NCBI RefSeq assembly: GCF_003790525.1
Contig: NZ_CP033635.1
Source: Escherichia coli
GTDB lineage: Bacteria; Pseudomonadota; Gammaproteobacteria; Enterobacterales; Enterobacteriaceae
DNA length: 64,000 nucleotides
Direction: 5' to 3' (one strand)
Position 1 is the stretch's first letter. Each line of letters opens with the position of its first letter. This document shows, piece by piece, positions 57,569 to 58,166 of the stretch. The notes beneath the pieces are model-generated. The model worked only from the letters and a program-made list of their open reading frames with translations, was not told the origin of the DNA and made no database searches. Made by a program: the position numbers and the translations under genes.

Positions 57569-57945
57569 GAAGCTGACCAGACAGTCGCCGCTTCGTCGTC
57601 GTCCTCTTCGGGGGAGACGGGCGGAGGGGAGGAAAGTCCGGGCTCCATAGGGCAGGGTGCCAGGTAACGCCTGGGGGGGAAACCCACGACCAGTGCAACA
57701 GAGAGCAAACCGCCGATGGCCCGCGCAAGCGGGATCAGGTAAGGGTGAAAGGGTGCGGTAAGAGCGCACCGCGCGGCTGGTAACAGTCCGTGGCACGGTA
57801 AACTCCACCCGGAGCAAGGCCAAATAGGGGTTCATAAGGTACGGCCCGTACTGAACCCGGGTAGGCTGCTTGAGCCAGTGAGCGATTGCTGGCCTAGATG
57901 AATGACTGTCCACGACAGAACCCGGCTTATCGGTCAGTTTCACCT
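57569..57945 (+). ncRNA. rnpB: RNase P RNA (M1 RNA), type A
   Basis: GAAGCTGACCAGACAGTCGCCGCTTCGTCGTCGTCCTCTTCGGGGGAGACGGGCGGAGGGGAGGAAAGTCCGGGCTCCATAGGGCAGGGTGCC...GGTCAGTTTCACCT, including the conserved GGAAAGTCCGGGCTCC and ACAGAACCCGGCTTA elements; about 377 nt. Confidence 0.92.
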
Positions 57946-57954
57946 GTTTTACGT

Positions 57955-57980
57955 AAAAACCCGCTTCGGCGGGTTTTTGC
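57955..57980 (+). terminator. rnpB terminator (repeat copy 1)
   Basis: aaaaaCCCGCttcgGCGGGtttttgc. Confidence 0.75.
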
Positions 57981-58069
57981 TTTTTGGAGGAGCGGAAAGA
58001 TGAATGACTGTCCACGACGCTATACCCAAAAGAAAGCGGCTTATCGGTCAGTTTCACCTGTTTTACGTA

Positions 58070-58096
58070 AAAAACCGCTTCGGCGGGTTTTTGCTT
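58070..58096 (+). terminator. Second terminator (repeat copy 2)
   Basis: aaaaaaCCGCttcgGCGGgtttttgc. Confidence 0.7.
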
Positions 58097-58166
58097 TTTG
58101 GAGCATAGTGTAAGATGAATAAATATCTACGGTATTAATAATAGACTTTGTAAGAAATTATTAAGT

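What the first reader, a model, noticed from the sequence alone, without database searches (positions are those of the whole stretch)
57898..58114. Tandem repeats seeded from the 3' end of RNase P RNA, each with its own terminator
The last 48 nt of rnpB plus its terminator form the first unit of a direct repeat (about 102 bp, then about 115 bp, then a truncated third copy). Copy 2 diverges in its central part (CAGAACCCGG versus CGCTATACCCAAAAGAAAGCGG) and has a one-base change in the terminator stem. Repeats of this kind behind rnpB are known in E. coli, but copy number varies between strains and may provide redundant termination or recombination substrates.
Basis: partly seen in the sequence, partly recalled or inferred. 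Interest (0 to 1): 0.4.

Follow-up and report, generated by a model that had tools for sequence, protein, structure and literature searches.

The report
Known repeat array behind rnpB
Behind the RNase P RNA gene of this E. coli lies a short version of a long-known tandem repeat, made of a crippled copy of the gene's last 50 bases plus a spare transcription stop signal. It is ordinary for E. coli, although related bacteria share the same crippled copy and mobile islands use its core as a landing site.

Summary
rnpB lies at 57569-57945. Its last 50 nt, terminator T1 and a spacer form unit 1 (57896-57997, 102 nt). Unit 2 (57998-58112, 115 nt) matches it at 86% identity (E 1e-26). It differs by a 12-nt insertion, two changes in the P4 strand and one change that weakens the second terminator (-13.0 versus -19.4 kcal/mol). 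A degenerate third head follows at 58113-58132.

From memory, this is the array Reed and Altman described in K-12 in 1983; I could not retrieve the paper. The window carries a short allele. Sampled E. coli genomes have 1 to 6 units, and about two thirds of 5,426 genomes carry at least one extra unit.

- The crippled "B" copy has the same signature in at least 12 Enterobacterales species.
- Its 3' half tracks each host's own rnpB tail and terminator.
- Each unit holds the 12-bp core CTTATCGGTCAG. A tyrosine-integrase islet family, including the E. coli flk flagellin islet, uses this core as its attachment site.
- Both cores in the window are empty.
- The 71-aa ORF is not conserved.

Best reading: duplication and unequal recombination, giving back-up terminators. 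Low novelty.

The parts
57533..57561 (+). rnpB promoter-like site (GTGACA, 17 nt, TATACT). It drives the transcript that the array terminates.
   Evidence: Consensus scan, 10 of 12 matches. It ends 8 nt before the rnpB 5' end given by Rfam.
57569..57945 (+). rnpB, RNase P RNA class A (M1 RNA), 377 nt.
   Evidence: Rfam RF00010, 318.6 bits, full model 1-367. 100% identical to the annotated rnpB of E. coli SMS-3-5.
57896..57997 (+). Repeat unit 1 (102 nt): last 50 nt of rnpB, linker, terminator T1 and spacer GGAGGAGCGGAA.
   Evidence: the repeat finder families D1 and D2; blastn self-match E 1e-26; coordinates checked.
57926..57937 (+). CTTATCGGTCAG inside rnpB: the 12-bp core duplicated at both ends of the flk-type integrase islet (an attB core). 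Unoccupied here.
   Evidence: In ECC-1470 the same 12 bp flank the islet as a direct repeat. Exact copies located in the window. tblastn with the ECC-1470 integrase hit only L137, not the window; the regex scan of the 1.5 kb after rnpB found no P' arm.
57953..57985 (+). Terminator T1: 12-bp extended stem with a GC core and UUCG loop (57953-57980), then a U-tract.
   Evidence: Terminator scan. MFE -19.4 kcal/mol, z -4.26. rnpB T1 was measured as a nested or extended terminator in PMC3643576.
57998..58112 (+). Repeat unit 2, the 'B unit' (115 nt): pseudo 3' end of rnpB, linker, terminator T2 and terminal-type spacer GGAGCATAGTGTA.
   Evidence: 96-98% identical to K-12/W-type units. The spacer type matches the last spacer of other E. 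coli arrays.
58019..58039 (+). B-specific middle: 12-nt insertion GCTATACCCAAA (58019-58030) in the stretch between the P2 and P4 3' strands, plus the altered P4 strand AGAAAGCGG (58031-58039; rnpB has AGAACCCGG).
   Evidence: Global alignment. The same signature occurs in other genera. No true rnpB among about 140 sampled has the insertion.
58040..58051 (+). Second exact copy of the 12-bp core CTTATCGGTCAG, followed by the same tail TTTCACCT as rnpB. Unoccupied.
   Evidence: The homologous position of a B unit carries the islet arm in Cedecea, Erwinia mallotivora and Enterobacter sp. Bisph1, but in no E. coli genome.
58067..58099 (+). Terminator T2: same hairpin with a C-to-A change that opens a 2x2 internal loop. 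The U-tract is intact.
   Evidence: MFE -13.0 kcal/mol, z -1.69. Missed by the consensus scan. The same variant occurs in units of E. coli SC423.
58113..58132 (+). Truncated, AT-shifted third head AGATGAATAAATATCTACGG at the border of the AT-rich yhaC-yhaB segment.
   Evidence: 15 of 21 matches to the head, in register. Present in all sampled E. coli, including those with no B unit, and closer to the head in some (AGATGAATGAATATCTACGG).

Best explanation
The region is a short allele of the tandem array that follows rnpB in E. coli and many other Enterobacterales. One unit has four parts: a copy of the last 50 nt of RNase P RNA, a short linker, a Rho-independent terminator and a spacer.

The first unit is the real end of the gene with its terminator T1. 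Every further unit is a 'B unit', whose rnpB-like part cannot work as RNase P RNA. It has 12 extra bases in the stretch between the P2 and P4 3' strands, and the P4 strand is changed (CCCGG to AGCGG).

The array most likely arose by tandem duplication. Unequal homologous recombination then expands, contracts and homogenises it within the roughly 95-nt block that the units share, from the core through tail, terminator and spacer to the next head.

Its likeliest present effect is a second stop signal. RNA polymerase that reads through T1 from the strong rnpB promoter meets T2, weakened in this strain, before reaching the convergent gene yhaC.

Shown: the anatomy, the predicted terminators, copy-number variation, shared ancestry of B units across genera, and concerted evolution of their 3' halves. 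Inferred: the origin by duplication, actual use of T2, and any benefit to the cell.
For: - Repeat and anatomy.
- rnpB limits.
- Terminator hairpins and U-tracts: -19.4 and -13.0 kcal/mol. rnpB T1 is an experimentally measured terminator (PMC3643576).
- Same array with more units in K-12.
- Copy number of 1, 2, 3, 4 and 6 units in seven further E. coli genomes plus K-12 and the window. 3,633 of 5,426 genomes have at least one B copy; among those the median is 2 and the maximum 8.
- Breakpoints fit homologous exchange. The window's unit 2 joins an internal-type B unit to the terminal-type spacer within the shared GTTTTTGCTTTT stretch, not at the 12-bp core.
- Two terminator types are interleaved in single arrays in Salmonella, BL21 and Pluralibacter.
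- Concerted evolution: the 3' block of B units is on average 89% identical to unit 1 of the same genome, often 95-100%. Unit 1 blocks of different genera are 70% identical, and spacers 52%, which is the random level.
- B units alone show no significant fold (z -0.56) and match no Rfam family.
Against: - No transcript data were available, so use of T2 is not shown here. T2 in this strain is weakened.
- About a third of E. coli genomes, and species such as S. enterica houtenae, C. werkmanii and Kosakonia cowanii, lack B units. A back-up terminator is therefore dispensable.
- Simple duplication does not by itself explain why the B-specific insertion and the altered P4 strand are 88% identical among six Enterobacteriaceae genera while linker and spacer are 59-65%.
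- It also does not explain why none of the 40 or so non-first units examined has the functional rnpB middle.
Confidence: 0.72

Rival explanations
1. B units are scars or by-products of site-specific integration at the rnpB 3' end. A mobile element would supply a pseudo 3' end up to the crossover core, and the host would supply tail and terminator. The units were later amplified, and they may still serve as spare attachment sites.
For: - rnpB is a real attachment site. In E. coli ECC-1470 a roughly 9-kb islet with a tyrosine integrase (PF00589), an invertase-like resolvase, flagellin and a phase-1 flagellin repressor lies between rnpB and its displaced T1. It is flanked by a direct repeat of CTTATCGGTCAG.
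- Integrase homologues lie directly 3' of rnpB in Klebsiella, Pantoea, Pectobacterium, Yersinia and Budvicia, 5 of 5 checked.
- The same islet arm follows the last B copy, not rnpB, in Cedecea, Erwinia mallotivora and Enterobacter sp. Bisph1. In Cedecea the matching right arm, core and terminator lie 3 kb further on.
- The pattern of a 5' half shared between genera and a 3' half resembling the host's own tail and terminator is what an attR junction would give.
Against: - The right arm of the known islets is not significantly similar to the B copy or to rnpB outside the core (567 and 134 of 2,000 shuffles score as well).
- No element lies between the units in the window or in any tandem array seen.
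- I found no recombination route from an integrated element to a cargo-free tandem unit that has a terminator on the rnpB side.
- Among 5,426 E. coli genomes none has the islet arm on a B copy.
- Sampled copy-number breakpoints lie in the U-tract and spacer, not at the core.
Confidence: 0.12
2. The B copy is a functional RNA element acting on read-through transcripts. For example, it might compete for the 5' strand of helices P1/P2 so that RNAs that miss T1 misfold and are degraded, or it might act as a processing or Hfq-binding module.
For: - The B copy keeps the P2 and P1 3' strands identical to each host's rnpB while always spoiling P4.
- The B-specific middle is more conserved than linker and spacer within Enterobacteriaceae (0.88 versus 0.59-0.65).
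- Pseudoknot-free folding places the M1 5' strand on the B tail in read-through RNA in 7 of 7 testable species plus the window (1.0 to 7.1 kcal/mol in its favour; 1.2 in a control with an exact copy).
Against: - The folding model omits the P4 pseudoknot, tertiary contacts and co-transcriptional order, all of which favour the true strand. The control shows a built-in bias.
- The B unit has no significant structure of its own (z -0.56).
- A frequent G/A polymorphism breaks the only candidate stem in the middle without compensation.
- Arrays are absent from many lineages.
- Identity of the strands to rnpB is also what gene conversion would give.
Confidence: 0.12
3. The units encode small basic peptides, from the ATG of AGATGAATGAC preceded by GGAGG in the spacer. 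This corresponds to the open reading frames noted when the repeats were first described.
For: An ORF of 71 aa spans both units (57898-58113). GGAGG lies 9 nt before the second ATG.
Against: - The 71-aa frame exists only because unit 1 is 102 nt here. In K-12 it is 101 nt and the frame stops after 34 codons.
- In Enterobacter sp. Ag1, Cedecea, Pantoea, Pectobacterium and Bisph1 the frame stops at codon 10.
- The ATG is a conserved part of rnpB itself.
- A terminator hairpin lies inside the frame.
- RefSeq annotates no gene there in any E. coli row listed.
Confidence: 0.03

Closest known systems
The roughly 113-bp repeats in the 3' flank of E. coli K-12 rnpB (Reed and Altman, PNAS 1983; cited from memory, the paper could not be retrieved)
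   Same: Same locus, same unit content (end of M1 RNA, terminator, spacer) and 96-98% identical units.
   Different: The window has one full extra unit plus a head remnant. K-12 has three extra units, a REP insertion and a degenerate partial unit. T2 carries a stem change here.
Tandem intrinsic terminators behind highly expressed stable-RNA genes (for example rrnB T1 and T2; general knowledge)
   Same: Two hairpin-plus-U-tract signals in series after a strong stable-RNA promoter, ahead of a convergent gene.
   Different: Here the second terminator is a duplicate of the first, carried in a repeat that also copies part of the gene.
tRNA and tmRNA gene integration sites with regenerated target and displaced 3' fragment (Islander, PMC4383910)
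   Same: The rnpB 3' end is used the same way. The islet replaces the last bases of the gene, and the native tail with T1 is displaced to the far end.
   Different: In the window no element is present, and the repeated 3' fragments are head-to-tail with nothing between them.
The flk genomic islet of E. coli H3/H47 strains (Feng et al. 2008, as summarised in PMC3378880 and PMC5422975)
   Same: The islet I found in ECC-1470 carries flkA-like flagellin, a fliC repressor and a tyrosine integrase. It is bounded by direct repeats.
   Different: It is absent from the window. Its relevance is that its 12-bp core is present twice in the finding.
The RNaseP_RNA-targeting island in Mycobacterium avium 104 listed by TIGER (supplement of PMC7192596)
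   Same: Integration into the same part of the RNase P RNA gene (the ...ACAGAAUCCGGCUUACAGG... block).
   Different: Different phylum and a different integrase. No tandem pseudo 3' ends are reported.

Membership tests
rnpB 3'-flank repeat array of E. coli | Starts inside rnpB and runs on directly behind it on the same strand | tested here: met
   Unit 1 starts 50 nt before the Rfam 3' end of rnpB.
rnpB 3'-flank repeat array of E. coli | Non-first units of about 113 nt that are near-identical to those of K-12 | tested here: met
   115 nt; 96.2% identity to DH10B/K-12-type units and 98.1% to W-type units.
rnpB 3'-flank repeat array of E. coli | Non-first units carry the 12-nt insertion and the altered P4 strand | tested here: met
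   GCTATACCCAAA and AGAAAGCGG at 58019-58039, as in K-12, O157:H7, BL21 and Salmonella.
Rho-independent terminator | GC-rich hairpin directly followed by a U-tract | tested here: met
   T1: 12 pairs, -19.4 kcal/mol, z -4.26. T2: same with a 2x2 internal loop, -13.0 kcal/mol, z -1.69.
Rho-independent terminator | Transcripts end there in vivo | not testable with these tools
   rnpB T1 was measured in a reporter (PMC3643576). No data exist for T2 of this strain.
Attachment site of the rnpB-targeting integrase islets (flk type) | Exact 12-bp core CTTATCGGTCAG | tested here: met
   Two copies at 57926-57937 and 58040-58051, with none elsewhere in the window. The core was defined from attL and attR of ECC-1470.
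Attachment site of the rnpB-targeting integrase islets (flk type) | An islet (arm sequence, integrase) adjoins the core | tested here: not met
   tblastn with the ECC-1470 integrase hit only L137 and nothing in the window. The arm regex found nothing in the 1.5 kb after rnpB. Both sites are empty.
Attachment site of the rnpB-targeting integrase islets (flk type) | The B-unit copy of the core is actually used for integration | tested here: inconclusive
   Used in Cedecea, Erwinia mallotivora and Enterobacter sp. Bisph1. Never used in 5,426 E. coli genomes.
Small protein gene | Reading frame conserved between strains and genera | tested here: not met
   The frame length changes with a 1-nt T-run difference within E. 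coli. There is a stop at codon 10 in five other genera.
Known RNA family other than RNase P RNA | Match to an Rfam model at its gathering score | tested here: not met
   Only sub-threshold matches to terminator-like parts of unrelated families.

The most novel reading that the evidence does not exclude
The B units are not mere duplication debris but an old module kept by selection in Enterobacterales. They pair a deliberately non-functional copy of the rnpB 3' end with a terminator. The module would either work as a spare landing pad for the rnpB-targeting integrase islets, sparing the essential gene's own tail and terminator, or as an RNA element that handles transcripts reading through T1.
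Probability: 0.18. Interest if true: 0.55.

Novelty: already known. Interest (0 to 1): 0.3.

Why it matters
For the window itself it matters little. This is a common, short allele of a repeat described in the early 1980s, and it can be annotated as rnpB T1, one pseudo-3'-end/terminator unit and a remnant.

The comparative results are of modest wider interest:
- The same crippled copy of the rnpB end is shared across three families of Enterobacterales.
- It evolves in concert with the real gene end.
- It carries the attachment core of an integrase family that targets rnpB much as other integrases target tRNA genes.

If the copies were shown to divert integration away from the essential gene, or to control read-through RNase P RNA, that would be a new kind of protection for an essential RNA gene. 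There is also a practical point: the array breaks short-read assemblies, as in C. youngae, and its variable length is a usable strain marker.

Tried and rejected
- **Tandem Repeats Finder** found nothing. The repeat is too short and contains an indel, so this is not evidence against it.
- **Rfam at permissive E-values** gave only chance matches to terminator-like segments.
- **Searching the B unit in phage and plasmid collections** found only chromosome fragments filed as phages or plasmids. These were nevertheless useful as Salmonella and Klebsiella examples. The islet arm is not in any phage record.
- **The E. roggenkampii 'plasmid' record** is a chimeric chromosome piece. The far end of its prophage could not be defined.
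- **Similarity of the islet's right arm to rnpB or to the B copy** is not significant.
- **A search for non-first units with the functional rnpB middle** across all E. coli genomes was uninformative, because the tool joins neighbouring pieces.
- **The ORF reading** is rejected.
- **A conserved stem in the B-specific middle** is rejected. Only a 3-4 bp CGC/GCG stem is possible, and a common G/A polymorphism breaks it.
- **The folding competition between true and B tails** is inconclusive because of model limits.
- **Literature retrieval:** Reed and Altman 1983 and Feng et al. 2008 are not held in the library. No open-access paper on T1/T2 use of rnpB was found.

Full report
**Observation.** Rfam places RNase P RNA (rnpB) at 57569-57945 on the + strand (318.6 bits). 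A promoter-like site lies just upstream at 57533-57561. The repeat finder reports a 21-nt head AGATGAATGACTGTCCACGAC at 57896 and 57998, a degenerate copy at 58113, and an 84-nt block repeated 114 nt apart. blastn of unit 1 against the whole 64-kb window finds unit 2 at E 1e-26 and nothing else of note. The repeat is therefore real. It starts 50 nt before the mature rnpB end. It consists of unit 1 (57896-57997, 102 nt), unit 2 (57998-58112, 115 nt) and a truncated head (58113-58132).

- a 12-nt insertion, GCTATACCCAAA, at 58019-58030;
- AGAACCCGG changed to AGAAAGCGG;
- one C-to-A change in the terminator stem;
- a different spacer.

**Terminators.** T1 (57953-57985) folds into a 12-pair extended hairpin with a UUCG loop and a U-tract (-19.4 kcal/mol, z -4.26). 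T2 (58067-58099) has the same design, but the stem change opens an internal loop (-13.0 kcal/mol, z -1.69). The consensus scan found T1 only. rnpB T1 is a terminator measured in reporter constructs and described there as nested or extended (PMC3643576). From memory, and not verifiable in the library: primary rnpB transcripts end at T1 and are trimmed by an RNase E-dependent step, and a minority reach a second terminator.

**Identity of the locus.** The window is 100% identical to E. coli SMS-3-5 and many other strains. The gene order is garR-garK-rnpB, then the array, then convergent yhaC, yhaB, tdcR and tdcA. K-12 has the same array but longer: rnpB, two full extra units, a third with a decayed terminator and a REP insertion, a degenerate partial unit, and the same AT-shifted head remnant. 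From memory, this is the roughly 113-bp repeat described by Reed and Altman in 1983; the paper is not held.

**Variation within E. coli.** The genomes sampled show the following counts:

| Units | Strains |
|---|---|
| 1 | CH4793, M16807 (these also lack yhaC and yhaB) |
| 2 | the window, O157:H7, FDAARGOS_1276, CH423 |
| 3 | BL21 |
| 4 | K-12 |
| 6 | SC423 |

A query containing the B-specific middle matches 3,633 of 5,426 complete genomes. Among those, the median is 2 places and the maximum 8. Two terminator types occur, a short UUCG hairpin and a longer hairpin (CCCGCCAGCGTAAACCGGCGGG), sometimes within one array. The window's unit 2 ends with the spacer type that otherwise follows the last, degenerate unit (GGAGCATAGTGTA; K-12 has GGTGCACAGGGTA). 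The join therefore lies in the shared U-tract region. This is what deletion by unequal homologous exchange would give, and it is not at the 12-bp core discussed below.

**Beyond E. coli.** A scan of one genome per species with the 20-nt head returned 120 loci. Self-comparison showed tandem copies behind rnpB only in Enteroberales-type loci, that is only in Enterobacterales:
- Enterobacter sp. Bisph1 and Enterobacter sp. Ag1;
- Pantoea sp. IMH;
- Pectobacterium betavasculorum;
- Cedecea;
- Citrobacter youngae;
- strain RIT691;
- Pluralibacter;
- Erwinia mallotivora;
- E. albertii (a truncated copy).

Chromosome fragments filed as plasmids or phages added three more examples: Salmonella Senftenberg with six extra units, K. 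pneumoniae with one plus a partial unit, and K. aerogenes with a stub. S. enterica houtenae, C. werkmanii and Kosakonia have none.

In every species the non-first units share one signature: CCACGAC, then an insertion of 10-13 nt, then A-rich GAAnGCGG, then CTTAnCGGTCAG. No true rnpB among about 140 sampled has this insertion. The B copy therefore has a single origin, or it spreads horizontally.

Its 3' half behaves differently. The tail, linker, terminator and spacer of B units are on average 89% identical to unit 1 of the same genome, and often 95-100%. Unit 1 blocks of different genera are 70% identical, and spacers are at the random level of 52%. Species-specific tails, such as Pectobacterium CTTAACGGTCAAC, are mirrored in the B copies. 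This is concerted evolution.

The B-specific insertion and altered P4 strand are 88% identical among six Enterobacteriaceae genera, against 59-65% for linker and spacer. Across all ten genera the insertion falls to 64%, while the P4-like part stays at 84%. This suggests some constraint but does not prove it.

**Not a protein, not a known RNA.**
- The 71-aa ORF depends on unit 1 being 102 nt long. In K-12 it stops after 34 codons. In five other genera it stops at codon 10.
- The B unit has no significant fold of its own (z -0.56).
- It matches no Rfam family.
- Pseudoknot-free folding of read-through RNA places the M1 5' strand on the B tail. The margin is 5.9 kcal/mol in the window and 1.0-7.1 in seven other species. 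A control with an exact copy already gives 1.2, and the model ignores the P4 pseudoknot that only the true strand can form. I treat this as inconclusive.

**An unexpected link: rnpB is an integration site.** In E. roggenkampii the rnpB end is joined directly to TTCTTCTAAAACAATACGTTGGTGTGTC instead of T1. The same sequence follows the last B copy in Cedecea, Erwinia mallotivora and, in variant form, Enterobacter sp. Bisph1. In E. coli it matches 34 of 5,426 genomes, always on rnpB; 19 of the listed rows match over at least 183 nt.

In strain ECC-1470 the layout is as follows:
- rnpB is followed by this arm.
- Next come a 465-aa tyrosine integrase (PF00589), a YagK/YfjJ protein, a resolvase-type invertase, a flagellin and a phase-1 flagellin repressor.
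- About 9 kb further on lie the other arm, the core CTTATCGGTCAG, the native tail TTTCACCT, the displaced T1, a B unit and yhaC.

The 12-bp core is the direct repeat at both ends, and the islet replaces the last bases of rnpB with its own compatible version. This matches the flk genomic islet, whose integrase excises it between direct repeats (PMC3378880). ECC-1470's flkA/flkB islet is noted in PMC5422975. The original paper is not held, and its stated position between yhaC and rnpB is from my memory.

Integrase homologues of 47-78% identity occur across Enterobacterales. In all five genera checked (Klebsiella, Pantoea, Pectobacterium, Yersinia, Budvicia) the gene lies directly behind rnpB with the same arm. 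A TIGER supplement lists an island in the RNase P RNA gene of M. avium at the same sublocation. The finding's two units each contain an exact, empty copy of the core (57926-57937 and 58040-58051).

**Does integration explain the repeat?** It would account for the pattern of a shared 5' half and a host-like 3' half, and B copies are used as sites in three species. Several results argue against it, however:
- The islet's right arm is not significantly like the B copy.
- No tandem array has anything between its units.
- No E. coli genome has the islet on a B copy.
- The breakpoints seen are not at the core.
- I could not derive a route from an integrated element to a cargo-free tandem unit.

I therefore keep duplication plus unequal recombination as the best explanation (confidence 0.72). 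I rate the integration-scar reading and the functional-RNA reading at about 0.12 each.

**Verdict.** The feature is already known, and this window carries a common short allele. Interest is low to moderate (0.3). The open point is why the crippled copy keeps its signature across genera.

Noticed in passing
L137 19655-29100 (E. coli ECC-1470); L138-L142; not present in the window: A clade of tyrosine integrases sits directly 3' of rnpB in E. coli, Klebsiella, Pantoea, Pectobacterium, Yersinia and Budvicia. It has a conserved arm (TCTTCTAAAACAATACGTTGGTGT, with repeated GGGATACA/GTGATACA motifs) and variable cargo: flagellin plus repressor, a HEPN protein, or a VapE-like protein. The native rnpB terminator is displaced to the far end of the islet.
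   Followed up: partly
L006 about 1710-3280 and L089 about 4900-6900 (oriented loci): Next to the same arm, behind the last B copy, Enterobacter sp. Bisph1 and Cedecea carry a PAAR plus S-type pyocin toxin gene (Pfam hits 1.7e-9 and 1.3e-31) and no integrase in the sequence available.
   Followed up: partly
window 58167-59975, - strand: yhaC (395 aa) and yhaB (199 aa) lie in a 27-35% GC segment between the array and tdcR. Neither has a Pfam match. Both genes are missing from some E. coli (CH4793, M16807) and from Salmonella, where the array or T1 abuts the tdc regulatory region.
   Followed up: partly
window 57898-58113, + strand: A 71-aa ORF spans both units only because unit 1 is exactly 102 nt here. 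One fewer T in the spacer, as in K-12, ends it after 34 codons.
   Followed up: yes
L001 (K-12) about 2190-2330, - strand orientation; absent from the window: K-12, BL21, CH423 and SC423 have a pair of REP-type palindromes inserted in the unit with the decayed terminator. The window, O157:H7 and FDAARGOS_1276 lack this unit and the insertion.
   Followed up: partly
L100 and L101 (Citrobacter youngae contig ends): The draft assembly breaks inside the array: one contig ends and another begins in B units. The array is therefore a likely cause of assembly gaps and of under-counted copies in short-read genomes.
   Followed up: no
records NZ_LN868944.1, CP125156.1, NZ_CP129771.1, LR134124.1, NZ_CP109732.1, AGRM01000002.1: Several entries of the plasmid and phage collections are chromosome pieces, carrying garK-rnpB-tdc or ribosomal protein genes. 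NZ_CP109732.1 looks chimeric.
   Followed up: no
window 57986-57993 and 58025-58031: The stretch CUUUUUGG after the T1 U-tract is complementary to CCAAAAG inside the B-specific insertion. Partly analogous complementarity exists in Enterobacter sp. Ag1 and Pectobacterium but not in Pantoea. Its meaning is unknown.
   Followed up: partly
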